DNA of 64,000 bases, taken from Paraspadella gotoi (lineage: Eukaryota; Animalia; Chaetognatha). The stretch spans positions 1,743,395 through 1,807,394 of the forward strand of contig CM119271.1 of assembly GCA_051294375.1 (NCBI GenBank), in the 5' to 3' direction. Positions 1 to 45,641 of the stretch are shown piece by piece. Within the stretch, counting starts at the first letter, position 1; each line of letters begins with the position of its first letter. The notes beneath the pieces are model-generated. The model was not told the origin of the DNA, did not search any database, and saw nothing but the letters and a program-made list of their open reading frames with translations. A program made the position numbers and the translations under genes.

Positions 1-2701
1 GCCAGTCCGTCACCCGCTGCCCGAATGCTCGATCCTGCCGCCCGACCGCCCGCGAGAGAAAAATAAAAAACCGCGAGGCGGGCGTCGGCCGATCGATTGG
101 TTGGTTTGGTTGGTCGGGACGGAATTAGAGTCTAGTACAAAAAGTTATTTGGTTAGTGTTTCTCACCATTTCTGCTTGATTGGTTTAGTGTGCCAGATCG
201 GTTGAACGTTGTTTTCGATTATTAGTTTTAGTATAATTGACTGATTTGTTCTAATAATTTGAATTGTTTTGCTTGTAATAATATTAAATTAATCAATCTC
301 ATTTGAATATTGCAGCATTTAGATCAATTTCCATCTTCATGCCATATAAGAGAGTAATTGAGTATAAAGCACTCCCTAACAGATTTACTCATTGATAACT
401 GTAAATATCATAATATATCACATCATATTATATCATATCATATCATATAAAATCATATCGTCAAAACCCACTTTGTCCGTAACCCCTTTCGGCCTTCGTC
501 CGTCTTCCGCTTTCGACGACCGAGTGTCTCTCGGATTGTTAATAACCGGAAGATAAAAACTCGTTTTCTTTTTTGTTTTCTTTCGGGGAAAAACAACTGT
601 TTTGTCTCGTCGAATTTGTGTTTCGTGAGATCGAAGGTTTCGTCGAGATTTGATTTGCCCCAATTAGGAATTAATAGGATACATATTCTTGTCTTATTCC
701 GGTCATCTACCAACGTGGAATTTATAAATGGAATGAATGAACAAATGGGGAAAGAGAAATAATGATTTAGTTTAAGTGACGAATTAGAATTGAATTAGTA
801 AAAAAAAATAACTTAACTAATCAATCAATCAATTGAACGACCAATTAATTAATTAGTCATTTAGAAAAATACATTAATGAATCAATGAATAAATTACTGA
901 ATAATTCAATCAGTCAATCAATCAATCAATCAATCCTCTCTTTAAAATCCTATTTTTAGTCGACATCGATTTTTGTTTCGCCTTTTTATGTTTCGTGTTT
1001 CGTCTTTTGTTCTCTCGTTTTGTCATCTCCGCCTTTTTAATGTTTTGTCGTTTAGCGACGCCGAATCTCGAAAATCTCGGAAACAACAACAACGACAACG
1101 AATCCCCCTCCTCTTCCTCCTCCCGTAGGATCGACGTTTCTTCGCTCCTCCTCATCTTCGAAAAGGTAAGAACGCCGCCGCCGACGACGANNNNNNNNNN
1201 GACGACGACGACGACTGAAGATTCTCTCTCTCAGCTTCTTCTTCGTTCTCCTGTCAAGACTTTGATGACGTAATCTGTTGGAACAATGTTTGCTTAAGGG
1301 GACCGGTAGAGATCGCACCTGGGGTTGAGTATCGAGGCTGATTGGTTGGATTGATTGATTGGAAAGACTGATTGAAAGGATTATTACTTTTTAAACTTTT
1401 TTCTCTTTTTTTGGAATTTTACTATAAAACGGCGGATCGGCGTCTGAAGCGGCGAACCGGACGAGAGCAGAAACGGAGAAATTCTCAGAAGAAGCCGCTT
1501 CTGATATTTAAACTTTTGGAAAAGAAGTATTGTCTTTGTGATTATTGTGTGGCGGTCACCGCAATGTGGTGTTTCTGTTGTTTTAAACGAATATAAACTA
1601 CTGATGGTATTAATACTACTATACATTAGCATGCTTGAATAATAAATTGAGTATAGCCGGTCGCTCATTCTCTGTATACAGATTAACGATTGCAAAAAAA
1701 AATTTTTTTGGGGGGCATAATTACTAAACGTCCATTAAGAAAGAATTTAAAATATCTTTAGTAAAACGAAAAGTTTTTAGACTTCAGCAACGAGATTTTT
1801 AATAAGTTTGTTTTAATCCAAATACAAAAACGCAACGAAAAGAGAAGAATTACACAATGTCTACTAATTTTTTTAGTATTTGATTGTTATTGAGTATTTT
1901 GAGTTGAGTTCCTAGAGCCAAACGCTAGAGTTCACTCTCGATCAAACCAATCGTCTCTCCTTGTTCATTTGTTTCCGGCGACATTCCATTCGCGGTGCAG
2001 AGAACAAAAATTTAAACTTTAAACTTTTTTTAAAAAATTACAAAAATATTTAATATAAAAAACTCCAATCGTTTAGAAATTAATTTTCTTCTTTTCTTGG
2101 TAAATACCTATACTGAATTTTTTACTCTTTCTAACCTTCCTATATCTCATTCATTTTTATGGAGACTATAATTTGGTTTATAGTATAAACCAAAGAATAT
2201 AATTATAGTATAAACCTAATTTGAAACAAAACATTTAAAATTACTGTATAGCAAATGCTGCATATGAATCGACAATATCCCGCGAAAACTATTAAAGTAA
2301 TTAAACAAATAAATATAATGATTATGACTAATAGAAGACGTTTGAAATTGTTTTCAACAACGATTTTATTGTAGCAATAAAATCAATTTCAAACGTATAC
2401 TATTAATCCAAAACGCAACGAAACGAAAGGAAAACGCCAAAATTTCGTCCCTACAAATCAGCATTTTCAATAAAGAAGAAATCTTGAAGGATAAAGACGA
2501 CACGACGACGACGACGACGACACGGACGAACTCATAATCACGAGTCTTTGAGTTATTTTCTTAACTTTTCCTTCGCTGATTAATTTTCATTAAAAAACTT
2601 AGAAAAACTTTAAAATTAGAAAAACTTTTCCCCTTTGAATTCGGATCGAACAGAAAAATAGGTTAATCGAATCTTAAGGAAACTGGTGCTACCACTCTCT
2701 C

Positions 2702-2795
<94 letters not shown>

Positions 2796-2933
2796 TAAGT
2801 TCGGGACGACACCGGTTTCTGCTCTATTCTTAATATTTAAGAACTAAACCTGAATCGAAAAAAATACATCGCAAATAAAAAACAAAATAAAAACAAAAAT
2901 ATAAACTAAACTAAACTACTCTCAACCGGCGCC

Positions 2934-5900
2934 ATGTGGATCACACTGCTGCTGCTGACCGCCGCGGCGTTGTTCCTGCGGCGCTACTTTCGCAACGTCT
3001 ACTCCACGTTCGACCGTCTCGGCGTGCCGGGTCCCAAGCCGACGCTGCTCTTCGGAAATTTGCTGGAGATCTATCGGCGGCCGGAAGGAAAGAGCCGAGA
3101 GCAGGTGGGCGTTAACGTTGTTGTTGTTGTTGCTTCTAATGCGGTCGTTGCTCTTTTGTTGATGTAGTTTCTGATATTCAACCTCAATCCTTTACCAAAT
3201 ACTTAACCTCTAAGACAAAATACAAATACAATTATTACTTAACCAAAACTTAATCTTAAACCCAAATTTCTAATACTTAACCCAAATTCATAATCCTAAA
3301 CCCAAATTTATAATCCTAAACCCAAATTCCTAATCCTGAACCCAAATCCATAACCATATCCCTTAATCTTAATCCTTAATCCTAATTCTTTAAGCAAATC
3401 TTTGAACAAATCGCTAACTCAAAAACCTTACCCAATCTTTAAACTTATAAACCCGATTAATACTGAATTCATGAGGGTCATTTTCGAATAATATAGGTAA
3501 TTCCGACATGATGAGGCCAGGTCTCCGACCTATAGCTACAAATAAGACCCCCGGGAGGTAACCCGGAAGGTTTGGTGGACTTTTTCAATGTCGATTTTGT
3601 GATGTTATTGAATGACGAGTTTTTATTTTTGTACGAGTTCAAAGTAGACAATACTTTCCTGTCATTCGACGACGCCTTAATTTTAAAATGAAATATTTTT
3701 TTTATTCATTTCTTTTGACCAACATTTTTTATTTTCTTTGTGTTTCGCTCGATTATGAATTTCAAGTTATCGGTCGGGAAAGAGGATGCGAATGATTTTT
3801 ATATATCGACGAAACTATTAACGGCAGTATGCAAATTAGTTTATGGGTTTACTAGTTTATCCCGTGCGTAAAAATTAGGTTTTTAATTTTTTTTTGGTAT
3901 CGAATCATTTAAGTAAGTAGATAAGTAGATAAGTAGGTAGTAAAAAATCAAAATTAAACCCTAAAAGAATAAATGATTTGGTACACTACATAGCGCAATG
4001 AAAATGCTATAATTAGTATAAATAGTATAGTATAGTATATATATACAATAAATAGTATAAACGGCTTTTATATTTTGATTTACGTTACGAATAAATTAGC
4101 CATTTTTTGAAATACTAAATAAAAAGTCAAATATAAATTAAAGTTAAATTACCTTCTTCACACGCCCTTCTCGTTAATTCCACTAATTCTGCTGCGGATT
4201 ATATTCGTCCTTACTTTTCACCCGCTCTTCTTTCTCAAACGAGGTAAGTTCGCGACGATCTTCACTTACTCTTAGCCGCAAAGTTGGCAACCGACGTTTC
4301 AAGAGAAAATCCAAAGACGGAAGTAAAATAATTAAACGAAAAACCTCGTCGGCGACTTGAAAAAAAAAAGTTAAACAGTTCGTAAACAAATAATTATATA
4401 TATTCAATTGGATGCCATATATTTCGTCTTATCTTTTTAAGTTATCATTAATTGCTAAAAGGGACAAAATGACAGACCGAAAAAAAATACTAAAAAAAGG
4501 GTGAACCCCTTCCCTGCCAGATCTCGGTTTCAAGCATCTGTCTTCACGTAGGCGCCAATTTTAAAAGCTATCAGAGTAAATGGCAACTGTACATCGCGAA
4601 ATTTATTAAAAAAATATTTTGCGCCCTTTTCTGTTGATAATTTTATTCTTTTTTTTTTTTGGCCAAATTTAATGTACAAAAATTAACCAAATCCTAAATT
4701 TAAAAAAAAGAAAAAGACAACCGTAATCCGTCTTTTTTTTTTCGTCCGCTTCAAAAGTCAACAAAAAATACGAAAAAATAAACAAACGAACCAAAGGTTA
4801 AATAAAAATAAAAACATGATCCAAACGTCCAATTTTCGATTTCGTCAAAGTCGTTCGATCGTCGAGGACGAAATTTCCAAGATTTTCAGGAGAAAAAGAA
4901 GAAGAATAAAAAGAAGGAGAAAACGAAGAAGGAGAAAGAGCGGAGAGAGAATTTGGAAGAAGAAGCTCCTGCTGCAGGGAAGGAGGTGGAAGGCTGCGCC
5001 GAGGCTGTTGGAGGATCCGACGAGAGAGTTGGAGGGAGGAGCGACGACGAACAGTATAGAGGAGGTAAGGACGATCGCCGCGGCTACGACGATTACGACG
5101 ACGACGACGACGACGAACGAATGGCGAAGAAGTTCGGATAGAAACGTGGGTATCGTTCTCGCTAACGTCACAGCCGCTGCTTTCGTTCCAACAGTATCTA
5201 GGTAAGGCTTAAGGGTAAGGGGTAAAGCTCAAGGGGTCATGGGTCAATGATAAGGAGTCAGGCCAGTATTGACACTTGTTTATCCCTCATTTTTAGTACG
5301 GCTGACTTACATTAGTTAGTCATACATTAGTATTTTAGTTACTATCTGTAAAAATTCAAAATTCTGAGAGAAAAAGTTGCATTGACAAGCTGAAAGACTA
5401 GAACGGACGCCCAGACATATAGGCCGATAGAGCAACAGCCAATGAGACAAAGAGACAGACCGACGGACAGAGAGAGCCAGAAAAACAGACAGACAGCCAG
5501 CCTAATAATAAACAAACTGGCTGACAGAGATACAGCCACTGATAGGACTTCAAATTTCGATAACGTTTATATCCATTGTATCATTAATTATAACAATTTC
5601 AACCACTCCCCGCTCCCCCGACCCCTCCTCCCACTTCCCCGATATGCCCCCCTCTTCCTCCCCCGACCCCATCGACTGGGACGACCCACCGTCGCCGTCG
5701 TCGTCGTCGGCGTCGTCGTCGTCTTTCTCGTCGTCGTCCTCATCTTCGTCTATCGATTCGACGAGAAATTTCGAGATTTCGTTCGGCGTCAATGCTGCAC
5801 AACCGGAGAGATGAGGAGAAAGGAGAGGAGGAGGGGAAGGGGAGGAGTAGGGGATGACGGGGAACGGGGTAAGGGAGTCGGTATATGAGGTAGGGAGGGG

Positions 5901-7235
5901 ATTGTGGAATGGAGCGAGAGAAGGGGCTTTTATTTTCCTAAGACGCCCCATTTTATCTTAAATTCGTAATTAAGTTAGTTGTGAGGTATAAAGGTTAGTG
6001 ATAAGTTTAACGATTAGATTACGGATTAAGTTTAAACATATTAGCATTGCAATATGTTTACCCCGTTTATAAGCATGTAACCTGGTGGCTCATTGAGTAA
6101 TGAGCTTATGACCATTAGGTACCGGGGTGAGAAATGTGAGGACTGAGGACGGCTGTAGAAAGCTTTAACCCAAATTTAAAATTAGTTTAAAAATTAGGTT
6201 AAGGGTATTTGGATTAGGGTTAAAATAAGGGTTTAAGGTTAATAATAAAGATTAAGATAAATATTTTTTAAAAATAATGTCGTTCTAAATTTAAGCTGAA
6301 ATGGGGCGTTTTTAGAAAACACGGCCTCTCATTCCCTCTTTTCAGCTCCCGATTCTTCAGGCGCCGACGAATCCGCTCTCGCCACGCCCCCTTTTTCCTC
6401 TTCCTCTTCCTCCTCTCCTCATATCGACGGAAGATGGCGTCGACGACGTCTCTCGTTCGATTCGCCGACGACGCCGGACACGTGGAACACAACAACAACG
6501 ACAACGACGACCCCGACAACGCCGGACGGAACTAGGTAAGAAAGATGATTGAAGATGATGATGATGATGATGATGATGATGATCTGTTAAGATTGTGAAA
6601 GAAGATGGCGTGAGCGGTTTACCATCCTTTGCACACGATTTTCTGATCTTTGGATCAGACGGTACCAAGTTCGACACTAAAATCTGTAGTCGGGCATTGC
6701 CTAGGTTCACCCCGCCTATAAGCATGATACCTTCAGTCCTGACCCGGTGGCTCATTGAGTAAAGCCATCAGCTCATGACCACTAGGTACCGGGTTCAATC
6801 CCAACCCGGTACCTACCCTATGGGAAGCGTGAGGACGGCCGTAAGCCGCCTTGGGGGCGTGGCAACCCCTCAAGCCTGGTTCCAGGACCCGTTCCATGGC
6901 TACTAAAGGGGGTTATAGAAGTTACGGATAGTCATCTTCAGCCCACTTAGCACCTTATCCACAAATCATGTGTGTGTGAATCTGCAGGGCGCGAACCCGA
7001 GTCCTTTCGGTTTTGGGAAGAACATGTGCTGACGTGTCAGTTGTGGGATTTTAAGTACTACCCGACGCCGGGGCCCGATATTACATTAGGCAAAGCTAGT
7101 TTCATGAATTGTTAATTGTATATATATTTATATATATCAATTGGTAAATTGTATAATCATTTGTGTGGGAAAAAAAAATTTGATTTTATTATCTTTCTCT
7201 CAAGGGACACACCGTCGACGCCGCCACCAACAGCT

Positions 7236-7270
<35 letters not shown>

Positions 7271-10200
7271 TCATCCTCACGTAGAAGCAGTCGTCGTCGT
7301 CCGCGTGGACGAGCGGCTGCACCTGCCGTGTCTCGACTGCCGGGTGGAGTCTCTGCGGAACGCGGCGAGGAGTTGGAGGAAAGAGGGAGCGAGCAGGTGC
7401 GGATCGATGCATCGATCGATTAAATCGATCAATCAAATTGATGTAGTGGTAATACTACCACTACATTGATCAAATAAATTATCTAATCAAGCAATCAGTC
7501 ATTTACCTAATCGTTTAATCTATCTTTTAATTTATCAGTTAATTTATTATTCGATCAATCATTTAATCAATCAATCATTAAAATAATAAAACAATAAACA
7601 AATTAACAAAATAATCCAGCACAAATTTAATCAATAGACAATTCATTAGACATATTCATAAACATTCATAAACATATTCAATAAATAATTCGAATATATA
7701 TTGGTTGTACCAATTTCATATCATTAGACATATTCATAAACATTCATCGAAATATTCAATAATTAATTAATAAATAAATAAATAAATTAATTAATTTAAT
7801 TAATTCAATCAATCAATCACTCTCTCTTCCAGACCCTACGACCCCTTCCTCGGCCACGCCTCTTTCCCGCCTCCCCAGATGTCGCTCTACAACGAGGCGA
7901 CGCTGGCGGCGCTCCGCGAATACGTGGAGATCTCCGATTGGCGGAGACGGAGCGAGAGAGAGAAGCTAAAGACCCTGGAGTGGCTCGTCCGGGATGGCGT
8001 GGTTTTTCACAAGAACTGCGTGGGGCTGTCGGGGATTAGCGTGGCTTGAAGGGAAGGGAAGGATGAGAGTGGAGAGGCGAAGGAAGAAGGGAGTCGGGAT
8101 AAGAGAGCGGGATTCTTTCTTTTCTTTTATTCTATTATCTTAATAACAAATAAGAATTATTCATCTGAAATTTTACTACTATGTGTATCTGTAATTTTGG
8201 GTTTGTTTCCTTATTCAGGTGGACAAATAAAATTTGTCTGTTTACTTTTTAAAATAAATACATGTCGGATTGTCGGAAGAGATATCTCTGCGTAAGCCTT
8301 TTTTGTATGTAATTCATAGTAGGTTTAACATCAATTAGATCAATTAGATCAGATGTTTGAAACAGCTATTTAAAGGCATTAACGTGCCATTATTGAGTGC
8401 CCATTTCGAAATATATATTAGTTTTTTAACCAAATATTTTAAAGACTCCTCGCACTTTAATCTAACCAATCAGCATCCTCCGTTTCCCTCAAGGTTTTCT
8501 CCGATTGGGTAAATCAATACGGTCTCATCTTCGGCTACTTCGAAGGCATCTACCCTGTCATCTTTGTCTCAGAACCCTCCGCGCTTCAACATGTCCTTCA
8601 GACCAACTTCAATAACTTCGTCAACCGGCCCATGAGGGACTTTCTCGACGGCGGAGAGAGGGGAGATGTGTTTACCAGCAAAGGTAGGGGAGAGATAATT
8701 TAAATTGTTTGAAACTGGTACAACCAATATGAAATTAATGATTTTATTAAATAAAGTAGGTTTTGGACTGCCTAATACCTATGGCGAGTCAAGGCCATAT
8801 TTCTACAAGACTGTTACAGTCTAGGTTATTACTTCCCTAATACTTGGCTTATGGATTATGGAATATTATTATTATTAAGTTGTATAATATTTTAAAGAAC
8901 TGTTTCAATTAGTTATGAGGACCACTCTCTTAATCGTTTGTATTTTTGATAAAACCGAAACAATGTTGAAATTCCCTAAAATGGATACAAATATGAAAGC
9001 AAATATAGAATACCGAGCCAAATTTGTATATTGTAAAATTATTAATAGAATTTATATTTGTCCAATTGTCCTATTTCTGTTTTAATTTCAGACTCTAACC
9101 AAATTTTAATGACATATGTATTTGAACAAATCTCCCATTTTTTTTACCCCAACTTCTCTCCCCAGGTCAACGATGGAAACGCATTCGCTCGGTCCTCAGC
9201 CCTGTCTTTTCAGCCTCAAACATGCGAGACATGGCGCCAATTCTGGATGAGAAGATTCGGATGCTCATGTCTCGATTGAGAGAAGTCGGGGCGGAGGAAG
9301 AGGTTGATATCTATCACTTGTTTCAGCTACTTACCATGGACATCATTGGTCAAGCGGGTAAGTTTTGCTTTTAGGGTGGGTATATCATTGAGTGGATATG
9401 TGATCGTCGTTATTATCGTTATTGTTTTTGTTTTTGTCATTGTCTTTGCTTTGAGAATTCTGAGTCGTGAGGCTAGTTCAAGAATATAGAACATTTTGTA
9501 GTGAAGTCAAACAATTCTTAAATAAACTTTATAAAAATAAATTCACTATGTTAATTTATTATTTATTTATTAATTTCTGACCACCTCTTATTATTTAAGA
9601 GAATTTATTTCAAAATATTCTCAGCGTTTATCACTCTCTTTATAGTTCATTACATTTTTACCCTCTCCATTTTGACAACAGCCTTTGGTATGAATGTGGA
9701 TTCCCTCACCGACGACTCCCATCCTTTTGTCATTCATTGTCAAAACCTCTTTCGCGCCATCGCCAAAGCCGATCTGCCTTTCCAACTTCTCAGAGGAGTT
9801 CCTCTCTCTGTTAAGAGAGTCTTGAGAACAATTTTTGTCAATATCGGTAAGTGTTAAGATCAGAATGTTACATTAGTTTTGATTTATTCATGTTTTTTAT
9901 TTGATTATATAAAATTAGTACACCCATTAAAATCTTTCATTCATTCAGCAGATAAGCTATCTTTCCCATGACTTTGAACAGGAAATGGTGGATTAAGGCT
10001 GCTATTCCTCTTATAAGATAATAACATAGCAACTTTCAATAAAGACTCTCACACAGTCTATTTTAATAATTTCTTTATCAAGGAAGTGATATAACATTTT
10101 TTGTAAATTCTGTCAATTGTTTAAATACATAATATTTCTAGCAATAATATCGTTATTTTGATTTTAACTTGCCCACCTTTTTTATTTGTGTCATTTGAAA

Positions 10201-12046
10201 ACTATTTAAACTAAATATTAGAACAAATTGCTCTAAAATCTTTCTCAATATTTTTTGGACCCAAACAATGATAATAACAACAGTCAAACATTCCTTTTCC
10301 AGGGTCGATCTTTTTCAAACGGAGCGACAACTTGCAAGACATGAAGTGGCTGATGGAAGAGAGCAAGAAAGTATTGCAAGACCGGCAATCGAATCCGGTA
10401 TTCATGGAAGTCCCGGATCTTTTGGCGCTGATGTTAAGCTACGCGAAGAAAGCGAGTGATGGGGAATCGGAAAGCAAGGAGAAGATCCAAGGGGGATTCA
10501 AGAAGGGCATCACTATCGAGGAGGTGAGCGAAAGAAGTTTTTGACTTAGACTTAGACTAATAAAATGATACTTAATACTTAAAATAATACCTGATAAAAC
10601 AAATGAGAGTGGTTTAAATTTGTTTTAAGGTTAAAAGATTAAGTATGGGTTAAGGTTTGGGATTAAGGTCTAAGGTTAGAAGATATATTTACTATTTAGG
10701 TTAGTATTAAAGAGATTAAAGTCAAATATGATGGGTAAAATTAAGAGTAGGAATTAAGGAACAGGAATGAGGGGCTTTTGGAAAATAGTGCTTGTATAAT
10801 TATACCAAAATTTATACATATTTATATTTAAATGATTCTAAATCCACCCCTCTTTCCTCAGATCCAGCAACAAATCTGGATCTTCCTCCTCGCGGGCTAC
10901 GAAACCTCAAGCACGGCCCTCGGCTTCCTTGCCCACTCGCTCTGTGACCGACTCGACGTCCAGGAGAGACTCTTTTGTGAGATCAGGGAGTCAGCGGGGG
11001 AGTTGGAGGATGGGCGGAACCTGGTCGACGCTGTGGGGAAGATGACTTACTTGGATCAGGTGCAGGATTGAAGACAAGTTTGGGACAAAAGTTGGTTTTG
11101 AAAAAAAAAAATTTTGTTACTGTTAACTTTTTTTTTCTATCTCTCTCTCTCTATTCTTTATCTTTCTTTCTCTCTGTCTCTCTTTCTCTCTCTCTGCTTC
11201 TCTCTGTCTCTCTCTATTTGTTTTTCTATATCTCTCTATATCTTACTCTCTATTAAGCTCACATTAAGTTATTAATAACAACAGCAGCTTAACTATCTAA
11301 TCGTATCTCCAATTTTCCATTCCTTCAGGTAATTCAAGAAACTCTTCGCCTATTCCCACCCGCCCCTGAAGTGATCAGGCGCCAGGCAAGCGAGGCTTTT
11401 ACTCTGCAACTTCCCTCGGGTCATGTGACCTTTCCCGCTGGATTCACAGTTAAAGTGGGCATGCTGCAAACTCACAAGAGCGAGCAACTGTGGCATTGCC
11501 CTCTGGAGTTCAATCCGGATCGCTTCAGCCCCGAGGGCAGGAAAGAGTTGCACCCTTTTCAATTCCTGCCTTTTGGGCTCGGTCCGAGAGGCTGTGTGGG
11601 TATGAGGCTGGCCAATATGGAGTTGAGAATGACGCTGGTCCGGTTGATCCAAAATTTTAGGTGAGGAACGAAGGAGGTAAATCGAATTTAACTTACCCTT
11701 GATTTGGGTTAGGAATTTTGGTTTTTAAAACCACAGTATTGTTTAATGTTTAGTATGCAAAAAGATTAACTAACATAAATTAAAATGGAACAAAGGAACT
11801 TTTAGTGAATTTTCTAGAGTTAATTAGTCTTGTTTTGTTTTGAACACTTAATTTTAAAGAATATAATTTATATTTTGATATATAGACTATATTATAGTGA
11901 AAATAATTATTAATAATATTTTTTTGTATTGAAACTGCAGACTCGAAAAATCTGCAGGATACAAAATCGACATCGCGATATCTGAAGGAGCAACGCGGAC
12001 TCCGAGAGATGGCGTATTCGTGAAACTAGTCCCGCGAAGCGAATGA
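2934..12046 (+). CDS. Cytochrome P450, clan-3-like (CYP3/CYP5-type), isoform A; 8 exons
   Basis: Exons 2934-3104, 8494-8683, 9166-9357, 9682-9846, 10303-10523, 10862-11059, 11329-11660, 11941-12046. All introns are GT-AG and phase-compatible. Motifs: N-terminal anchor + PGPKP..LFGNL, WKRIR (WxxxR), AGYETSS (I-helix), ETLR (ExxR), PDRF, PFGLGPRGCVG (heme Cys). Confidence 0.93.
4816..8049 (+). CDS. Putative multi-exon gene of unknown function nested in P450 intron 1, same strand; possible single TM segment
   Basis: Exons 4816-5201, ~5642-5868, 6346(or 6361)-6535, 7205-7396, 7833-8049. Donors (three GTAAG, one GTGCG) chain in compatible phases to end ...SRPYDPFLGHASFPPPQMSLYNEATLAALREYVEISDW...GISVA*. 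The exon-2 acceptor reads CG, not AG. Confidence 0.55.
6685..6966 (+). mobile_element. tRNA(Met-like)-derived SINE-like repeat, family 1
   Basis: tRNA-like head 6751-6821 with A-box TGGCTCATTGAG, CAT anticodon loop and B-box GGTTCAATCCC. Near-identical copy at 43032-43319 and a partial copy at ~6043-6155. Confidence 0.8.
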
Positions 12047-12550
12047 GTGGTGAAAAAAGTCCCGTGTTGGTGAGGGAAGTCGATGTGAACAATTTGTACA
12101 ATTCTTGGTGAAAAGTGATGCTGTAAATTTGATTTCTTGCTTTTTAAATAAAAATAGTTTTGCACAAGTTGCCTTTTAGACGAAATAGAATTTTGATGAA
12201 AATATGTAAATTTTTTGTAATTTTTTGGCTAGTCTGATAACATGTATAAATTGTAAGTTTACTGTTATGTATCTGTATTTTTGTGTTTGTTACTTTATTG
12301 AAGTAGAAAAATAAAATTTGTCCATTTATGTTTTAAAATACATGTCAGACATGTTAGCCTTTTTTGTACATAATTATTAATAGGTTTTACATCAAATAGA
12401 TCAGATGTTTGAAACAGCTATTTAAAGGCATTGAGTTTGTATAGCAAAATGCCCATTTTGAAATATATATTAGTTTTTAACCAAATATTGTCTTGTCTTC
12501 CTATCCTCCCATTTTAATCTAACCTATCAGCATACTACATTTCCCTCAAG

Positions 12551-15500
12551 GTCTTCTCAAATTGGGTGAATCAATATGGTCTCGTTTTCGGCTACTTTGA
12601 AGGCATCTACCCAGTTCTCTTCATCTCGGAACCCTCCGCGCTTCAACACGTCCTTCAGACCAACTTCAATAACTTTGTCAACCGGCCCATGAGAGACTTT
12701 CTCGATGGCGGAGAGAGGGGAGATGTGTTTTCTAGCAGAGGTAAGGGTGAGTTAATTTAAAAAATGTTTGTAACTGGTAAAACCAATATAAAATTAACAA
12801 TTTATATCAAGGCCTCCATATTTCTACAAGATAATAACATAGCATGATTCCGTAAGATATTAATAAAGCCTGTTACAGTCTAGGTTATTTCCTCCCTAAT
12901 ACTTGGCTTTCCTATGGATCCCATACTCATTAGTATTTTTGACAAAAGCGAAACACTGTTGAACTTCCCTTAATTTAACGGATGCTAATATGAGATCAAA
13001 TATAGAAGACCAAGCCAAATTTGTATATTGTAAAATGATTAATAAAATTTATATTTGTCCCATTGTCCTATATCTGTTTTAATTTTACACTCTAACCAAA
13101 AATTGAATGATGTACACATATGCAGTAAAGCGGGCCAGAATTTAACCTTTTTTCACAATGTGAAACAGTCTGCAATAAAAGTCTTTTGTCCTTATATAAC
13201 CAAATTGACTTATAATGTTAAATTTTGATTAAATTAATTTTCTTCATGCATGGATGCATTTTCATATTTAACAATATATGAGAATTGCTGAAAATTTTTT
13301 TTTTAAATTCAAATTTGAAAAAATGGATTCTGATAAAGATTAAAAAGTTAGATGAAGGTTAGTATTACAGATTTTAACAAATTTGATGATAAATGGATTA
13401 AAATTAAAAAAAACCTTTAGGAAAAACAGTTTTGTTTGACAACGATTTATTTGACACAATTTTAGTCAGACATGTTTCGGCTCTTTCATTTAGAGCCTTC
13501 ATCAGTGTTTTGTGTCAAATAAATCGTTGTCAAACAAAACTGTTTTTCCTAATACCTCAAAAACAACGAAAAGAGAGTATATACATAAAAAAAAACTTTA
13601 AAAAATTATCATTATCATCATCATTCAATAAATTTGATAGTTTTTATTAATGAACAAATCATTAAAATTTCAAAAAGTTGTAATAGTAACCGTCACCTAA
13701 CTTTTCAAGCTCTATCAGAATCCGACAAAAAAAATTGAAATTTATCAACACAAATTTTTGACATCATATAATATTTGGATAATATAAAATAGCATGCATG
13801 CATTTAACTATAAGATAAATCTTGTTTTTATTTTCACGATCTTTAATAAACATATCACAGATGAATAAAACGTGGAAACAAAGAAAAGGATTAAGGAAGA
13901 GGATTCTGGAAGAGGAAGAAGATTCTGGAAGCCAAATCCAGAAAAGGAACAATACCTTTCTGTCTACTTACTTAAATGTTATTAAATGTTATTAAATGTT
14001 ATTATATTTATACCGGACTTCTGTTAGTTTGTAACTTGTTCCGCCTTAAAACCTCCCCTATTTTTTTTTTACCCAACTTCTCTCCCCAGGCCAACAATGG
14101 AAACGCATTCGCTCTGTCCTCAGCCCTGTCTTTTCCGCCTCAAACATGCGAGACATGGCGCCGATTCTGGACGAGAAGATTCGGATGCTCGTGTCTCGAT
14201 TGAGAGAAGTCGGGGTGGAGGAAGAAGTTGATATCTATCACTTGTTTCAGCTACTTACCATGGACATCATTGGTCAAGCAGGTAAGGTTTATTTAGGTAT
14301 GGAGGGTGGGTAAGTCGTTGGGTGGATAATTGATTGTTGTTGTGGGCATCATTATCATTATTGTTTTCATTGTCATCTTTGCTTTTGGAATATTGTGATT
14401 AGTGAAGTGAGTTCAATAATGTTGAACGTTTAATACTAAAGTCACGCAATGTTTTTTAAAATATAAAATGAAATTAATATGTCTATTGACTTGACTTATT
14501 TTACATTTAGACTGTTCCATTACCCTACCAAGCGCCCAAAATGAATTGCCATTTTCTATGCCGTAATTTTTTTTAATTTCAAAATTTTATTTTAATATAA
14601 GAATTTGTTTCACAAAATTTACAGCATCCATCATCATCTTCATACATTCATCTACAATTGTCCATTACATTTCTACCACTACATTTCAACAACAGCCTTT
14701 GGTTTGAACGTGGACTCCCTCACCGATGACTCCCACCCTTTCGTCATTCATTGTCGTGGACTCTTTCGCGCCATTGCCAAAGCCGATCTGCCTTTCCAAC
14801 TTCTCAGAGGAGTCCCTCTATCTCTTAAGAAAGTTTTGAGAAAAATTTTTGCCAAGATTGGTAAGTTAGAATGTTAGTTAATTTTGATTTATTCATGTTT
14901 ATTATTTGATTATATAAAATTGGTACAACCACTAAAATTATTCATTCATTCAGTAGATACTAGATAAGCTATTTTTCCCATGACTTCAGACAGGCTATGG
15001 TCGGTTAAGGCCTCCATCCCTCTTATAAGATAATAACATACATTATATACATAACACACATATACATGATAAGTAAAAAAATTTTAAGAAAGCAATACAT
15101 ATATAATTAAAGAATATAGATTAAATAGTAAATCCTACATAAAATATAAAAATAGAAAATAGTGAAACAAGTAATTTGCAAATTTTCGTAACAGCTCTCA
15201 CAGTCTAGTTTAATAATTTCTCTATCAATGAAGAGATATAACATTTTTGTAAATTCTATCAATTTTTTAAATACTTAATATTTCTAGCAATGATATTATT
15301 ATTTTGATTTTAACTTACCCACATTTTTTTTCGTGTCATTTGAAAACTAAACTAAAGATTGGAACAAAATTCTAAATATTTTTTTGACCCAAACAATGGT
15401 AATAACAACATTCCTTTTCCAGGGACGATCCTTTTCAAACGGAGTGACAGCGTGCAAGACTTTAAGTGGCTGATGGAAGAGGGCAAGAAAGTATTGCAAG

Positions 15501-17668
15501 ACCGGCAATCCAATCCAGTCTTCATGGAAGTCCCGGATCTTTTGGAGCTGATGTTAAGCTATGCGAGGAGAGCGGGAGATGGGGAATCGGAAAGCAAGGA
15601 GAAGATCCAAGGGGGTTTCAAGAAGGGGGTCACCATCCAGGAGGTGAGCAAAAATAAAATGATAAAATGAAAAAATAAAATGATGCTTAATACTTAAAAT
15701 AATACCTAATAAAACTTATGTGGGTTGTTTAAATTTGTATTAAGGTTTAAAGATTAGGTATGGGTTAAGGTTTGGGATTAAGGTCTAAGACTAAAGTTTC
15801 TTCCCGACAAGGAAAAAAAATAGGACACTCTTAAATCTTAAATTGCACGCGTTTTATGCATGTAATTTTAAAAATTTGAAATGGTAAATATAATTTTTAA
15901 AAAAGAAATTTATATATGTAAAGGAATAGAAAATCGGTTCAGTCATTCAAGAGCTATAAGTCCCCAAAAACAAGTGGTAAAAAATAAAATGGGGGGGAAA
16001 AACATTCTTGAAGATCTGCAGAAAACCTTGTATGTCATTTGGCCTTTATTTTTAAGCGTTGTATTCTTGTTTTTTTTTTAAAAACAATGAATAGGAAATG
16101 TGGATTTTTGAAAGAAGAATGCATTTATGTAAGTTAAAAGAAAATTGGTCCAGTCATTCAAGAGATATAAGCAACCTAAATACAAAAGGTTAAAATATTT
16201 CAATTTTCTTCTGCTTTGATGTTCTGTTTGAGAAGTTACTTTTAAAAAAGCATTGCTTAAAAATGAATGGCTAAAATTATAAACAAATTTGCACTAATAG
16301 TTCTTTTTTTTAATGAACATTATCAACTTATAATATCTTTCATAATAAAGGATTCTTAACAAGATTTATTTGCACAATGTTTTAAGGGGTCCTTTTTTTT
16401 ACACAGGACTGTAGATTTAAATTATTGGAAATCCACTCCTCCTTTCCTCAGATCGAGCAACAAATCTGGCTCTTCCTCGTCGCCGGCTACGAAACCTCAA
16501 GCACGGCCCTCGGCTTCCTCGCCCACTCTCTCTGCGACCGACTCGACGTCCAGGAGAAACTCTTCCACGAGATCAGGGAGATGGCGGGGGAGTTGGAGGA
16601 CGGGCGGAACCTGGTTGACGCCCTGGGGAAGATGACTTACTTGGATCAGGTGGAGGCTTGAAGACATGCTTGGGACAAAAGTTGGTTATTATAAAGAAAT
16701 TTTAGTAACTGTTAGTTTCTCTTTCTCTCTCTCTCTTTCTCTCCCTCTCCCACTTTTACTTATGTCTCCATCTCTCTCTCTCTGTCTCTCTCTCTGTGTC
16801 TCTCTCTATTTGTCTTTCTCTATATTTTTCTATCTCTCTCTATCTCTCTATATTTCTCTTTATCTCTCTCTCTCTTTCTTTCTCTCTTTCTCTTTCTCTA
16901 TTATGCTCGCATTAAGTTATTAATAACAACTGCAACTTAAATATCTAATCTTACCCCTAATTTTTCCCTCCTTCAGGTCATTCAAGAAACTCTTCGCCTG
17001 TTCCCACCCGCCCCCGAAGTGATCAGGCGTCAGGCGAGTGAGGCTTTCACCCTGCAACTTCCCTCTGGTCATGTGAGCTTCCCTGCTGGATTCACAGTTC
17101 AAGTTGGCGTGATGCAAACTCACAAGAGCAAGAGGCTCTGGCATTGCCCGCTGGAGTTCGATCCGGATCGCTTCAGCCCCGAGAACAAAAAAGAATTTCA
17201 CCCTTTTCAATTTGTGCCTTTCGGGCTTGGCCCAAGAGGCTGTCTTGGTATGAGGCTGGCCAATATGGAGTTGAGAATGACGCTGGTCCGGTTGGTCCAA
17301 AATTTCAGGTGAGGAGTGGAGGAGGTAGATAGATTTTAACTTACTCTTGATTTGGGTTTTTAATACCACGGTGTTGTTTAATGTTTAGTATGCAAAAAGA
17401 TTAACTAACAAAAATTAAAATGAAACAAAGAAACTTTTAGTGAATTTTCGAGATTTAATTCGTCTTGTTTTGTTTTGAACACTCAATTTTAAAGAATGTA
17501 GTTTATATTTTGATACATAGTGAAATAATTATTAATAATATTTTTTTATATCAAAACCGCAGACTCGAAAAATCTGCTGGATACAAAATCGACATCGCGA
17601 TATCCGAAGGAGCAACGCGGACTCCGAGAGATGGCGTATTCGTGAAACTCGTCCGTCGAAGCGAATGA
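12551..17668 (+). CDS. Second P450 cassette (exons 2-8 only, no exon 1 of its own), isoform B
   Basis: Exons 12551-12740, 14090-14281, 14696-14860, 15423-15643, 16452-16649, 16977-17308, 17563-17668. Each has the same length and phase as in cassette A. No stops seen; AGYETSS, ETLR, PDRF and PFGLGPRGCLG are intact. Confidence 0.9.
13240..13805. mobile_element. Degenerate foldback/MITE-like insertion in cassette B intron 2
   Basis: Absent from the equivalent cassette A intron. Imperfect inverted arms (ggattctgataaagattaaaaagttagatgaaggttagtattaca vs tgtaatagtaaccgtcacctaacttttcaagctctatcagaatcc). Ends are approximate. Confidence 0.5.
13417..13585 (-). mobile_element. Penelope-like element remnant with minimal hammerhead ribozyme
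   Basis: Minus strand CTGATGA-aggctct/agagcc-GAAACATGTC, between ~43-bp inverted arms (13417-13459, 13510-13552), followed by a caacgaaaaga tail. Confidence 0.7.
15800..16413. mobile_element. Tc1/mariner-like MITE in cassette B intron 5
   Basis: Absent from cassette A. The right end reads TA-CAGTCCTGTGTAAAAAAAAGGACCCCTTAAA on the minus strand and matches a degenerate left end (aaaaaaataggacactcttaaa). Confidence 0.45.
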
Positions 17669-20600
17669 GTAGTGAAAATACAATTTATAACAAATGAACA
17701 GTTCCGTGTCGGCGATGGAAGTCGATGTCAATAATTCTTGGTGAAAAGCGATGCAGTAAATTTGATTTCTTGCTCTTTAATTAAAAATAGTTTCGCACAA
17801 GTTGCCTTTTAGACGAAATAGAAATTTGATGAAAATATGTAAGTCTGTTGTAATTTTTTGACTAGTCTGATAGCATGTATAAATTATATTCGGTAAAGGA
17901 AAATTATTCAAGTCTTCAAAAATAACATGGAGTTTCAAATTTTATGAATTAGAACATATTGGTTTAAGAACATATTTCTTTTCCACATCCCCCAAAAACT
18001 AACGCCCGTATCAAATCTGAATCGTCTTAATTGGTTGTTTGAAATAAAACTTTTATTAACCGCGGCCCCTCGTCATTATTTTCGGGGAAGGCCTTCGCAA
18101 GCCATGGCAAGGAATGCCTCGAGACAATCCAGAATGCGACGGCTACATTCCAGAAGTTGATGTTGACCAATGAGGGAAGAGAGAAGCTTGAAAGAGACTT
18201 CAGGACTCGCGATCTGATTGCCAATGAGTTGGATGTGGAAGGAGAGAGAGAGAGAGAGAGAATGAGAGAACTTCGAAACGTAGTCCACTAAAAACGTATT
18301 TATCTCTCTATGTTAAACTTGAAGATCAATTTAACATTTAAAACTATCTTACTATGTAGGTATGTACTAGACATGACATGACATGACATTAAAAAGAACA
18401 ACTGTGAACTTGTAATCGTTTATTTCTTATCATAACTGTTATATTATTGGCAGGGACAATTATAATGCAAAAGCTTATTTAAATGGTCATCAGGAGGGTT
18501 ATGCTAATAAACATTTACTTGCAAGAATAACAGTATACCATTTGACCATTCAACCATCGGTCAAAATAGCTTTACCAAAAAAAAACAAAAAAATAGAAGA
18601 GGCATGACACGTTATTCAATGTAACATCATCAAGATCATTTTTTTTCGTAACGTCTGTTCGAAAAGCAAGACCATCTTTGTTTAAAGAAACAGAGAAGAA
18701 AATTATGAATTCAGATTTAACGGTTATTTTTTTGAAGTATTATTTATCAGTTAAAATTTTAAAAAAAAGTAGATTAAAATTTTTAGCATTACTAATTTGT
18801 TGGAAGTTCCGTCGAATATAATGAGTATTTAAAAGGGCCACTTTAATACATTAATTAACAAAAGCTCAAAAAAATGTACAAAATGATTGTTTTTTTGGAG
18901 GGAAGAGGTAAGAGGGAATGGAATTGGTAGAAGTTGGGGCCCCACCCTGAAGGGTATTTATAGACACAAGGTATTCGTAATCTCTAATCAATTTTAGATT
19001 TATAAATCTTACAATAAATTTATCAGTCCGGGGACTGGCAGAGATTATTTTTTTTTATTAACAATGGAATAAAAATATAGTGAATAATATTATTAATAAT
19101 GTGAAACAAAAAACGCATAAACCTACTCGATAATAGAGGAAGATGATTTTCAGCTTTTCTCATTTGTTTTTAAATTGAGCGAATCGTGAGAGTTAGATAC
19201 GATTTGTATACTATATTTAGTCGGTTAAATTTATAGTATCGTTATTAATAAGTTAAATTAAATTTTTTTTTATTGGAATTAAAAGCAAGAATGCGATGTA
19301 TAAAAATTGTTTAAAAACAATTGTTAGTTTCATCGCAAGAATGCGATGTATAAAAATTGTCTATTGTTAGTTCCATCGTATCTCTGTTGACTCTTGTCTA
19401 ATTAATAAACCATTCTTTTGCAACAACAAAAAATAAGTTAAACAAAAAAACAAAAACAATTTTAAAACGAGACGCAAAAAGTAAATAGGTCAGGAAGCAA
19501 AAATGGCTTCGCGGATAAAGTAATACGCCACAGTGAATTTACCTCAAGGAGATAACGAGTAATAACAACACATCGGGTTTTTATATTCATGATTCACAAA
19601 AACAATTTTTTTAAGTACAATAAATTCATAACGGTTATATATCTTTAAAAAAATTTTTTTTGGAGCGTTCCAAAATTTTTTTTCCTCGATTGAAGATAAC
19701 TTTTTTGACTTTTTGGCTTTTTATTTTTCTTTACTTTTGGAAGCATAAATTTGCAAAAAAATACCATGCACTACCGTTTATTCTTCTAAAAGATATCGAG
19801 AATATATCTAAAAAAATACTGTGAGAATAGCCTTAGCAAAAAAAAGCACTTTGGAAGAAAGTCGAGTCCCGCATCAAAGAGCCCCCAGAAAGGGTCCTAA
19901 ATTGGCCCTTTTCGTGGAGAGCTCCCCCAAATGAACCCCCATTGGAAAGCGAGCCGAAATTTCATTTCAATTTCATTAACAGTAACAAATCAATCGCTTT
20001 ACTTTTAGTTTCACCCAGAAAATATAGGAAGTTAGGAACTACGATTTAGGTTTGATGGACTTATCAAGGGCGGTTAAAACGATTATAGCATACAGGCGAT
20101 GGGACTATTAGTCAAAGTCAAAAGCAGACCCGTAAATTAGTCTTCATGTATTAAACTTAAATATTTTTTTTTTAAACTTTTTTAATTCGAACTGAGTCAA
20201 CGAAAGACATGCACATGCGTCAGTTGATTGTTTTTTTAATTTCTTATCACAACTCAACTGTGTTAGAAGATTGTACCAGTTCGAGTCTTAAGCGAACAAA
20301 TTAGTTTTCGTTCTGCATTCTATTCGGTTAAAATTTTGATTAAACGTGCAGAAAATCTACTTGACCCTTGATTTCGGTCATTACAACGTGCGATAGAAAA
20401 ATTCATCATTCTAAGCACCAATTTATAGATTTAATGCCAAAAATTGAAAATTTAAATACATTTTTAGAAAAATATTTAATGAGATGGCAAGAATAAAATT
20501 TAATCGATTGTTGTTTAACTAATGCTGTATCCTAAAATTGATTTACTACCGTATTTTAAACATTAGTGATAAGACCTCAACTTTAGCAGCTTAATTGAGT

Positions 20601-23088: not shown

Positions 23089-25395
23089 TTTCGAATTCGC
23101 GAAAAAGTAAATAAACATTTGGGACTCCAAACAGTAAAATTTATGCGATAAATAGCGGACCAGTTCAACGGGTATTCACGAAGGGACATCCTGTCGCAGA
23201 TTTTTTCACCTTTCACTGTTGGCGAATAAGTTTTTAAAAAGTTTTTTTGTTGTCAAAACTAGGTAAATGGAAATGATTTTCTTATTCTCTTATTGCTATG
23301 CAATTTGTTATTTTCGATCTTCCTTCGTTTTTTATCGGAAGTATTTTTCATACTACGAATGTTATTGTATTAAGACATTGTCAGTTTGTTGATAATCAAA
23401 TGATTTCGTCTTTACATACTAGAAACCGTAAGATGAAAAGGAAAAAAAAATCATTTCGGAGATTACATGAAGAATTTGGATCAACCGCCGAGCATCCATA
23501 TCGTTAGATATACATTTGAGGGAGACAAAAATCCCCGAAGGTCAGTGCTAATTTTAAGAATAAATCATAAATACCAAAATTCCAAGTGCAGTTTCTACTC
23601 TTCCATATGGCCGATTATCTATTCTCCTCTTTTCGTCTAACTTACATGTAAAGACTAATTCATTAACAGTCATGACTTACCTAATAAACTTCCAATATGG
23701 AGTGCGCTCCCGAGTTGGATTCTTATGAGCTCTTTCTTTAAAGCCATAACATGCATGATCCAAAAGACGGATATGCATATTATAACTGCTGCTATGGGCA
23801 CACCCACACTGAAAAAGAGGGGAAAAAATAATGAAAAAATGACAATGGCATTGTAATAAAATCAAAAACAGGATTTGAATGTTTCACTAGATCAGGAAGG
23901 CAAAAATCAACAGTTTTCCAATATTGGTACAAATAGTTTTATACAGCCGAGCCAAAAAAAAAACCTTATTAATCTCCCAAGCTTACAGCTTACCTGATGC
24001 CAATCATTATTCCGAGACCGAATTTCTCAACGCAGTACTTGTGTGAATAATCAACGGCGTCCTTGTCGTTAAGCAGCTCTGGTTCATGACAGGTAAGATG
24101 TGGCTCCTGAAGGGACGTGAGAATGCAATTTAATATACGGTCAATATACTCAGATCAATGTATATTTTAAAGTGTGCTATGTTATTATCTTGTAAGTATT
24201 ATCATTTGAGCCTTTGCCCACTACAGCCTGTCCAAAGTCAAGAGGCAAGATATGTTATCTATCGAAGGAATAGTTTAATTTTTATATTTGTTGTACCAAT
24301 TTAAACATACATACGCAGACGAAGCCTGTTCGGTCCTACGCCGCTTCACCGCGGCGCAACACCTTGGAATAACCGTTCCTTGTTTTTCTGCATTTGTACT
24401 ATGCCGCACTCACCTCAACTCACTGCCGCACTCACCTCAACTCTGGTATCCCCCTCTTCCTCGTGCCGCTGCCGCAACCGCTCGACCCACTCCATGAGGC
24501 CCACGATGCGGCAGCTGCAGTCCCACGGGTTCGGATCCAAGATGATTGTCTCGATGAGGAAAAGGTTTTCGAAGGTGGGGCCTGAAGACGGAGTTGGTAT
24601 GCGCGGCGGCAGGGGGGGGGGTAGTCGGGGAGAAATCGGAAGTTTTGATTGACAGAAAATACGTTTGATTCTTGTTTAACAAAAATGTATCACCCACAGA
24701 ACTACAAAATTCAATGAAATAAAAATGTCAGAATTCAATGTCTGTAAAACGACACTATCAAATGACAATGACCATTAGAAGACAGAGTTCAATGACATTA
24801 AAATGACACAATTCAATGACATAAAATAGCACAATTCAATGACAATAAAACGATACAATTCAATGAAATTAAATCATAAAATTCAATGACATTCAAACGC
24901 CACACTTCAATGACAAGAAACAAGAAAATTCAATATCAGTGAAACGACACACTTTAATGACATTAAACAAGAAAATTCAATGTCGGTGAAATGACACACT
25001 TTAATGACATTAAAAAAAATTTAATGACAGTCAAATGCCACACTTCAATGACATTAAATATTAAAATTTAATGACAGTCAAACGCCACACTTCAATGACA
25101 TTAAATCATAAAATTTAATGACATTCAAACGCAACACTTCAATGACATTAAACGAGAAAATTCAATGACAGTCAAACGCTACAATTCAAAAACTACTAAA
25201 TTCGCCATTTTATTTCTTACCGGGAATTTCTTTCAAAGAGTTATTGTAAATTGTCAAAAATTTGATGTTGTAAGTCGTGTTGAAAGTTTCATTGTGAAGC
25301 GTCGTCAGTTTGTTCGAATGAAGATGCAAAATTTCCAAGGCAGGTAGGGTAGCAAAAGCAAAGTCTTCTAGCACCTGGTGAAGGTGAGAGAGTGA

Positions 25396-25437
<42 letters not shown>

Positions 25438-35674: not shown

Positions 35675-36139
35675 CATACATACATACATACGTATAGTAG
35701 AAATAAAGATTTATGAACAATAAAACGGTTTCCACTTCACGATCTCCCAGGTGGTATGGGCCAAAACGAAGCTGATCGGTTGCGGCACGAAAGATTGCAC
35801 GGACGATTCGCTCTTGACCAACGGAAACACCCTCATCGTCTGCAATTATTTTCCCGCCGGAAATATGAACGGAAGTGAGTTAAAAATATTTAAATTACTT
35901 AATATCATTATTAGTTGAAATGATTTTATTAAACTGTTCCTTCAGATAAACCGTATCAAGCCAAGGATTCCGCAGTCTGTTCCCCGCCGTCGACCACGAC
36001 TCCCGCAGATTCGGACGACAAGCATTTCCCGGAAATGCCACTGATCGGCAGCTCCGGTTCCGTACTTCGCTCAATCGGGAAAGTTTTTCTCTGTCTCTCG
36101 CTTTTCAGTATCGCGGCGCCGAGAGTTGTTTACGGATAG
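30782..36139 (+). CDS. CAP/SCP superfamily protein 1 (GLIPR1/PI16-like; signal peptide, hydrophobic C-terminus)
   Basis: Exons 30782-30934, 31291-~31389, 35321-35496, 35751-35874, 35946-36139. Motifs: HEKYR, CQWEH, GQNMF, W.DE, CGHFTQVVWA, IGCG, VCNYFPAGN. Exon 2 seems to contain small indels. Confidence 0.9.
31460..31545 (-). mobile_element. Penelope-like fragment with minimal hammerhead
   Basis: Minus strand gcgCTGATGAaggctcgtattgtgagccGAAACATGTCtgc. Confidence 0.7.
33600..33775. mobile_element. Penelope-like palindrome (inverted hammerhead pair)
   Basis: Near-perfect inverted arms of ~85 bp. The right arm is CTGATGAaggcttgaaatgaagccGAAACATGTC. Confidence 0.8.
34196..34752 (+). pseudogene. 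Decayed OTU-like cysteine protease ORF inside the transposon
   Basis: Across frameshifts and stops: PVDKDWQ, VKGDGACLPRTIS, HQILREAIVDF, TWMETLEVEAFSYLLETPI, YILNSNDHF. These correspond to the OTU Cys box, W..E motif and His box. Confidence 0.75.

Positions 36140-45575: not shown

Positions 45576-45641
<66 letters not shown>

What the first reader, a model, noticed from the sequence alone, without database searches (positions are those of the whole stretch)
2934..17884. P450 locus with one membrane-anchor exon and two alternative 7-exon catalytic cassettes
Seen: exon 1 exists once. Exons 2-8 are tandemly duplicated, and unit B starts directly after A's 3' UTR with only ~300 bp of copied intron 1, leaving no room for its own exon 1. 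B nevertheless keeps every exon length, splice site and catalytic motif. In exon 2 I count 13 synonymous and 6 conservative (D/N, I/V, I/L, V/I, T/S, K/R) codon differences, while the introns have diverged and gained insertions. Both exon-2 acceptors are phase 0, matching the exon-1 donor. Inference: B is under purifying selection and expressed by splicing exon 1 across the whole of cassette A, so splice/poly(A) choice selects between two enzymes. This mirrors UGT1A and clustered protocadherins, which have variable first exons and a constant 3' end. Matched phases also allow A/B chimeric mRNAs.
Basis: partly seen in the sequence, partly recalled or inferred. Interest (0 to 1): 0.85.

Follow-up and report, generated by a model that had tools for sequence, protein, structure and literature searches.

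The report
One anchor exon, two P450 enzymes
An animal cytochrome P450 gene has one membrane-anchor exon followed by two tandem copies of the seven catalytic exons, both intact and both spliced into RNA; the second copy likely borrows the same first exon, and a predicted RNA pairing would choose which of the two enzymes is made.

Summary
Observation confirmed. Exon 1 (2934-3104) occurs once in the window; exons 2-8 are duplicated head to tail with identical lengths, open frames, all P450 motifs and dN/dS 0.18. A DNA contig bridges the A-to-B junction. In one RNA run both cassettes are spliced. B exon 2 is joined to 28 upstream letters that are not its genomic neighbours; the letters were not displayed, so the exon 1-to-B junction is inferred. 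A model in which A and B share exon 1 predicts 5 of the 7 listed RNA contig lengths to the base. This is the docking-site/selector layout shown in fly 3' variable cassettes (PGRP-LC, CG42235, Pip), a closer parallel than UGT1A. A/B hybrids are not major forms at 5 of 6 junctions. The architecture is known; I found no paper describing it for a P450.

The parts
2934..3104 (+). Exon 1: start codon, hydrophobic anchor, PGP hinge; phase-0 donor; single copy in the window
   Evidence: 26/55 and 29/57 identical to the N-termini of full-length relatives P0061 and P0161
4527..4540 (+). Candidate docking site, complementary (13 Watson-Crick pairs + 1 G-U) to the two selector copies
   Evidence: predicted pairing, not tested in RNA
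4816..8049 (+). Probable same-strand nested gene X in intron 1: pieces ending 5064, 6346-6535, 7205-7396, 7833-8049; 5' end uncertain; no family
   Evidence: no Pfam or Atlas assignment; no RNA laid here
8350..8363 (+). Candidate selector upstream of A exon 2, inside a 36-base block (8345-8380) identical in A and B
8494..12046 (+). Cassette A, exons 2-8: 8494-8683, 9166-9357, 9682-9846, 10303-10523, 10862-11059, 11329-11660, 11941-12046
   Evidence: A7-A8 joint and A3-A4 contig in RNA run X8
12047..12251 (+). A 3' UTR and flank with AATAAA at 12147; ends at the duplication junction near 12252
   Evidence: bridged by DNA record 3 of run X1
12252..12550 (+). Copied end of intron 1 (299 bases, 27% G+C, no CpG), no coding exon
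12402..12415 (+). Candidate selector upstream of B exon 2 (block 12397-12432)
12551..17668 (+). Cassette B, exons 2-8: 12551-12740, 14090-14281, 14696-14860, 15423-15643, 16452-16649, 16977-17308, 17563-17668
   Evidence: joints B2-B3, B3-B4, B4-B5 and a B7-B8 contig in RNA run X8
17669..17888 (+). B 3' UTR and flank with ATTAAA at 17780; end of the duplicated unit

Best explanation
This is one clan-3-like P450 gene in which a tandem duplication copied exons 2-8 but not exon 1; both copies are intact and spliced into RNA, and exon 1 is likely spliced in cis to either copy, giving two predicted membrane-anchored enzymes 89% identical after the shared 57 residues. The choice likely works by competing RNA pairing: one docking site at 4527-4540 would pair with the selector before A exon 2 or with its copy before B exon 2. 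Pairing with the first would loop out the nested gene X; pairing with the second would loop out X and all of A, including its poly(A) signal. I infer that the pairing first served to carry exon 1 across gene X, and that the duplication made a usable second enzyme because it captured the selector with the acceptor. Shown: the anatomy, selection, splicing of both cassettes, the DNA junction. Inferred: identity of B's first exon (about 0.85), cis rather than trans, and the pairing (about 0.55).
For: dN 0.055, dS 0.31, ratio 0.18, Fisher p 8e-22. A neutral B branch would alone give about 79 amino-acid differences (58-100) against 50 seen in total, and would keep its frame free of stops in 2.4% of 2000 simulations; about 19 frameshifts are expected at the intron rate, 0 seen. 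The 46 codons of B before its first in-frame Met are also constrained (12 synonymous, 4 replacement changes, p 1.5e-6), so B is translated from an upstream start in phase 0. Run X8: GT..AG joints A7-A8 (depth 31.6), B2-B3 (30), B3-B4 (37.8), B4-B5 (39.2); record 26 (219 letters, depth 33.7) matches 12549-12741 and has 26 more upstream letters that lie nowhere in 11290-15660. A k=31 graph of exon1+A and exon1+B predicts records of 219, 460, 196, 142 and 262 letters exactly; an unshared exon 1 without an intron branch, A6-to-B2, and unspliced read-in do not. DNA record 3 of X1 runs 11998-12426 with no difference at depth 120. Docking site: the only site of 12 or more pairs with both selectors in 5061 bases of intron 1; 7 of 300 shuffles as long, 0 of 300 as stable, 0 of 19 other tiles as long; 3 matches in the window against 0.03 expected; five other conserved blocks give 10-12 pairs.
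Against: The 26 upstream letters of record 26 were not displayed, so the junction is not read. An unshared first exon whose own intron is also read into gives the same 219 letters (H3); such intron branches occur at 1 of 5 testable donors in this run, so the geometry favours sharing only about 3- to 5-fold. The ATG-bearing piece 4816-5064 would fit too if it fed both cassettes. One RNA run, one study. The DNA bridge comes from the sample that may be the source of the assembly. The first, broader pairing scan was not significant (best window -24.0 against -21.2 +/- 1.6; 2 of 30 shuffles), the stem statistic was chosen after the site was seen there, the selectors are identical so there is no covariation, both are partly folded locally (mean unpaired 0.26-0.47), and equally long identical blocks occur in introns 5 and 7. 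No whole genome was held, so a second exon 1 outside the window is untested.
Confidence: 0.75

Rival explanations
1. B is a functional gene with a different first exon: a second exon 1 outside the window or in a gap, or the basic ATG-bearing piece 4816-5064.
For: Record 26's upstream letters are unseen; an unshared exon with an intron branch, or 4816-5064 feeding both cassettes, also gives 219 letters. No genome to search.
Against: No second exon 1 in the window; none between A and B, where DNA contigs are continuous; needs an extra coincidence seen at 1 of 5 donors; 4816-5064 has no anchor or PGP hinge, while relatives carry an exon-1-like N-terminus directly before the exon-2 sequence.
Confidence: 0.1
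2. Exon 1 is shared, but joined in trans: exon 1 and the cassettes are on separate transcripts, as reported for CYP3A43 exon 1 with CYP3A4/5 and (recalled) for fly mod(mdg4) and lola.
For: Exon 1 must otherwise cross a nested gene with strong acceptors (12-14 bits) and poly(A) signals; a docking/selector pair could also act between molecules. CYP3A hybrids are reported as trans-spliced (PMC1890557, 1 passage).
Against: All parts are collinear on one strand; the copied intron before B has no CpG and 27% G+C against a CpG-rich exon 1 region, which is weak evidence against a promoter there.
Confidence: 0.08
3. B is a transcribed relic, kept open by recency or by gene conversion from A, and makes no useful enzyme.
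For: Identical runs of up to 53 bases between A and B; against outgroup P0021 more changes fall on B (11 against 5); B's end branch is longer (0.06 against 0.033).
Against: dS 0.31 with differences along the whole coding length; neutral simulation rejected; against P0061 and P0161 more changes fall on A (13 to 7, 12 to 7); all motifs intact; spliced at a contig depth like A's.
Confidence: 0.04
4. A and B are two haplotypes that the assembly joined in tandem.
For: The window has N gaps; the only bridging contig is from the probable source sample, and X5 and X6 do not bridge.
Against: Record 3 crosses the junction without a difference at the same depth as its flanks; two further DNA samples each hold both A-type and B-type contigs nearly identical to the window; dS 0.31.
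Confidence: 0.03

Closest known systems
Drosophila 3' variable cassette genes CG42235, Pip and PGRP-LC (PMC6191721; abstract, introduction, sections 12 and 14 read; supplements not read)
   Same: Common 5' exon(s) spliced to one of several tandem 3' cassettes with their own ends; CG42235 has five cassettes of five to eight exons; PGRP-LC isoforms share the membrane segment; selection by one docking site and several selectors, shown there by compensatory mutation.
   Different: Here the variable part is a whole P450 catalytic domain (467 of 524 residues), there are two cassettes, the docking site lies 1.4 kb from the donor, and the loop also encloses a probable same-strand nested gene. The pairing here is only predicted.
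Detoxification enzymes with a shared exon 1: Drosophila GstO2 A/B (PMC4195677, passages) and Anopheles GSTD1 (four splice variants, PMC2588609, passage; its shared-5'-exon layout is recalled from Ranson 1998, not read)
   Same: One first exon, alternative enzyme bodies.
   Different: Small soluble GSTs with short variable parts, not a seven-exon membrane-anchored P450.
Human CYP3A43 exon 1 joined to CYP3A4 or CYP3A5 exons (PMC1890557 and PMC5793191, one passage each)
   Same: A clan-3 exon 1 joined at canonical sites to a paralogue's remaining exons.
   Different: Those genes have their own exon 1 and the hybrids are described as trans-spliced; here B has no exon 1 of its own in the locus, so sharing would be obligatory.
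UGT1A and clustered protocadherins (recalled)
   Same: One locus, several proteins from duplicated cassettes.
   Different: Opposite polarity: variable first exons with separate promoters and a constant 3' end.
CYP3-clan P450s (CYP3A, thromboxane synthase)
   Same: About 30-33% identity to named CYP3A-like and TBXAS proteins; CYP3A4/5/7 are the best solved structures for relative P0061.
   Different: Forms its own supported branch with three unnamed proteins (100/100); below the 40% family convention (recalled) for CYP3; substrate unknown.

Membership tests
Cytochrome P450 (microsomal) | Haem motif FxxGxRxCxG, ExxR, PxRF, AGxET, WxxxR | tested here: met
   All present in both models; Pfam p450 E 9e-32 for B exon 7. 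Motif definitions are recalled.
Cytochrome P450 (microsomal) | N-terminal anchor and proline hinge | tested here: met
   In exon 1 only: hydropathy 2.3 over residues 1-15, PGP at 32.
CYP3 clan | Best relatives and tree position among clan-3 proteins | tested here: inconclusive
   Named relatives of P0061 are nearly all CYP3A-like or TBXAS; the tree had one long CYP4-like outgroup and an open base.
CYP3 family proper | At least 40% identity to CYP3A (recalled convention) | tested here: not met
   30-32% to P0172 and P0175.
3' variable cassette gene | Tandem duplicated 3' cassettes, each with its own stop and 3' end, downstream of a single common exon | tested here: met
3' variable cassette gene | Each cassette expressed and spliced | tested here: met
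   Run X8 joints for A and B; one run.
3' variable cassette gene | Common exon joined directly to each cassette | tested here: inconclusive
   Contig geometry fits; junction letters not seen; exon 1 to A2 was not covered by the laid stretch either.
3' variable cassette gene | Cassettes used one at a time | tested here: inconclusive
   No abundant hybrid at 5 of 6 junctions; contigs drop rare forms; A5-B6 not testable.
Docking-site/selector regulated cassette | One upstream site complementary to a sequence before each cassette | tested here: met
Docking-site/selector regulated cassette | Conservation or covariation across species; compensatory mutation | not testable with these tools
   No related genome held; the two selectors are identical.
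UGT1A/protocadherin type | Several first exons, one constant 3' region | tested here: not met
   One first exon, two 3' regions.

The most novel reading that the evidence does not exclude
An RNA bridge that evolved to carry a P450's anchor exon over a same-strand nested gene was captured by a partial duplication and at once became a switch between two enzymes: a single 14-base docking site decides between two P450 active sites, showing how a 5'-truncated duplicate that annotators would call a pseudogene is born functional. In the boldest form exon 1 is a hub that also feeds gene X through its phase-0 acceptors (4890, 7879).
Probability: 0.4. Interest if true: 0.75.

Novelty: new variant of a known kind. 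Interest (0 to 1): 0.6.

Why it matters
P450 repertoires are counted gene by gene, and copies without exon 1 are usually filed as fragments (own knowledge). If B borrows exon 1, two enzymes share one promoter and their ratio is set by splicing, not by transcription. The differences include two I-helix positions that align with CYP3A residues 301 and 304 (recalled as lining the active site) and many in the F-G region, so the enzymes may differ in substrate. The locus is also a compact two-choice test of docking/selector pairing outside flies, with a plausible origin for the pairing.

Tried and rejected
No whole genome was held. The run search listed no holder on record as RNA; 4 of 9 runs were laid, on 11290-15660 only; X8 proved to be spliced RNA, X5 and X6 low-depth DNA, so my guess that shares near 0.3 meant RNA held for 1 of 3 such runs laid. 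Exon 1, gene X, A2-A6 and B6-B8 were not in the laid stretch. X8 has no cover from 12020 to 12457, which includes the last codons and 3' UTR of A where the model predicts a 173-letter contig; a hole proves nothing either way. Only 32 of 1153 pieces and 24 of 179 loose ends were displayed. Of the 7 X8 records listed, one (27) is predicted by its start only (I set its end) and one (28, a repeat) was not modelled. A search for short proteins holding B exon 2 found none; a search with B exon 7 found no protein of this organism. Gene X got no family: Pfam best E 0.006-0.5 below cut-off, Atlas unnamed or no hit. The first stem search covered 3105-4300 only and missed the site. The site pair as transposon ends: the flanks show no target-site duplication (read); not excluded. 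A 27-base micro-exon around the docking site and a leader ending in ATG do not fit record 26, which ends in AG; A6-to-B2 and A5-to-B2 give other contig lengths. F-G region (200-262, bounds chosen after seeing the data): pN 0.109, pS 0.19, p 0.18, relaxed or diversifying, not positive selection shown. Literature: searches for a P450 with a shared first exon listed nothing relevant; the library lacks most subscription papers, Hatje and Kollmar 2013 was not held, and no supplements were read, where lists of fly 3' cassette genes could name a P450. PMC2776167 (9 passages) gave the cholinergic locus only; PMC9540044 (2 passages) and PMC3634070 (8 passages) added nothing beyond GSTD1 being spliced.
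Full report
Observation. Exon 1 (2934-3104) encodes 57 residues with a hydrophobic anchor and the PGP hinge and ends in phase 0. It has no second copy in the window at protein or DNA level. Exons 2-8 occur twice, A at 8494-12046 and B at 12551-17668, with the same seven lengths, AG/GT ends and phases; each gives an open 524-residue frame with exon 1. Self-comparison puts the duplicated unit at about 8166-12255, copied to 12252-17888. The 504 bases between A's stop and B exon 2 hold A's 3' UTR and 299 bases of copied intron, with stops in all three frames.

The protein. Both models keep the WxxxR, AGxET, ExxR, PxRF and haem motifs (motif definitions recalled). Two unnamed full-length relatives, P0061 and P0161 (41-49% identical), run from an exon-1-like N-terminus straight into the exon-2 sequence, so exon 1 is the proper front end of this enzyme. 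Named relatives are CYP3A-like and thromboxane-synthase proteins at about 30-33%; the pair forms a supported branch with three unnamed proteins. The host is an animal that I did not identify.

Selection. A and B are 89% identical in protein; dN 0.055, dS 0.31, ratio 0.18. In 2000 simulations at the intron rate, a neutral B branch alone gives 58-100 amino-acid differences against 50 seen for both branches together and stays free of stops 2.4% of the time; about 19 frameshifts would be expected, none is present. Changes polarised on three outgroups fall on both branches (13 A, 12 B, 25 unresolved of 50). The 46 codons of B before its first in-frame Met are as constrained as the rest, so B needs an upstream start codon in phase 0.

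Reads. Nine runs hold the stretch; four were laid on 11290-15660. DNA run X1 bridges A's 3' end and B's copied intron in one 429-letter contig with no difference, at the depth of its flanks; it may be the source sample. Two other low-depth DNA samples hold both A-type and B-type contigs but do not bridge. Run X8 is spliced RNA: GT..AG joints A7-A8, B2-B3, B3-B4 and B4-B5 at depths 30-39, plus A3-A4 and B7-B8 contigs laid on the other copy. Its record 26 covers B exon 2, matches the two letters AG before it, and has 26 more letters that lie nowhere in the stretch; these letters were not displayed. A graph of 31-letter words built from exon1+A and exon1+B predicts contigs of 219, 460, 196, 142 and 262 letters, exactly those of 5 of the 7 X8 records listed. 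The 219 arises because both exon 2s start with GT and part at the third base. An unshared first exon gives 219 only if its own intron is also read into, which is seen at 1 of 5 testable donors in this run. This is indirect, and worth about 3- to 5-fold on top of the anatomy. Each hybrid junction A2-B3, A3-B4, A4-B5, A6-B7 and A7-B8 would have broken a contig that is whole; rare hybrids would not show.

What lies in intron 1. Three pieces, 6346-6535, 7205-7396 and 7833-8049, have good splice sites and join into one open frame of 198 codons; the last has the same G+C pattern by codon position as exon 1 (0.61/0.44/0.82), though the first does not in this frame. A fourth piece ending at 5064, or one ending at 5868, could be its 5' exon. 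No family was found and no RNA was laid there. If real, exon 1 already has to cross a same-strand gene to reach A.

A candidate switch. That paper (abstract, introduction, sections 12 and 14 read) shows that fly genes with tandem 3' cassettes pick one cassette by pairing a docking site with a selector upstream of it. The longest block identical between the two intron-1 copies is 36 bases (8345-8380, 12397-12432). Its core pairs over 14 bases, one G-U, with 4527-4540 (-20 kcal/mol). It is the only site in 5061 bases of intron that pairs over 12 or more bases with both copies; 7 of 300 local shuffles reach the length, none the stability, and none of 19 other tiles reaches the length; 1 of 400 shuffled selectors does. 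The window holds just these three matches. The docking site lies upstream of all pieces of gene X, so pairing with selector A would loop out X, and pairing with selector B would loop out X and A. Against it: a broader first scan was not significant (2 of 30 shuffles), the statistic was chosen after seeing the site, there is no covariation, and identical blocks of like length occur in introns 5 and 7. I put it at about 0.55.

Mechanism. Most likely one promoter drives a long transcript; exon 1 is spliced to A exon 2 with cleavage after A, or to B exon 2 with cleavage after B, and the pairing biases the choice. The anatomy, selection, splicing of both cassettes and the DNA junction are shown. 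The identity of B's first exon, cis splicing, the pairing and its origin as a bridge over gene X are inferred. The two enzymes differ at I320L and L323V, which align with positions 301 and 304 of a CYP3A, and at 16 replacement sites in region 200-262; different substrates are plausible and untested.

Comparison and novelty. The architecture is known: CG42235 has five cassettes of five to eight exons, PGRP-LC shares its membrane segment, Drosophila GstO2 A and B share exon 1 (PMC4195677, passages), and human CYP3A43 exon 1 is found on CYP3A4/5 exons. UGT1A and protocadherins (recalled) are the mirror image. Seven searches listed no paper on a P450 with an obligatory shared exon 1; the library is incomplete and supplements were not read. 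I rate it a new variant of a known kind, interest 0.6.

Noticed in passing
window 4816-8049 +: Probable same-strand nested gene in P450 intron 1; acceptors at 4890 (weak) and 7879 (strong) are in phase with exon 1, so exon 1 could also feed it.
   Followed up: partly
window 14759: Runs X8, X5 and X6 read A for G, changing B residue 206 from Gly to Glu in the F-helix region; the window may carry the rarer allele.
   Followed up: partly
window 18043-18288 +: Frame just after cassette B with a weak serine carboxypeptidase S28 match (E 8e-4, below cut-off); looks like an isolated exon.
   Followed up: no
window 25783-27408 -: Leucine-rich-repeat exons (Pfam LRR_8, E 5e-12 and 2e-15), beside tandem repeats at 24700-28400.
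   Followed up: no
window 35724-35915 +: Weak CAP-family C-terminal match (E 0.002).
   Followed up: no
window 44057-45683: Long repetitive frames open on both strands (529 codons on +, 366 on -), Arg/Ser-rich on +; no Pfam match.
   Followed up: no
window 13100-14060 and 15040-15190: High-copy repeat insertions in B introns 2 and 4 (DNA depth in the thousands), including a palindrome at 13417-13552.
   Followed up: no
window 33600-33775, 46564-47456, 59836-60029: Long palindromes or inverted repeats; 6680-6966 recurs at 43027-43319.
   Followed up: no
window 1-8000: CpG-rich zone (13-42 per 500 bases) that drops to 3-23 across the P450 cassettes; further exon-like G+C-rich pieces at 1040-1560.
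   Followed up: no
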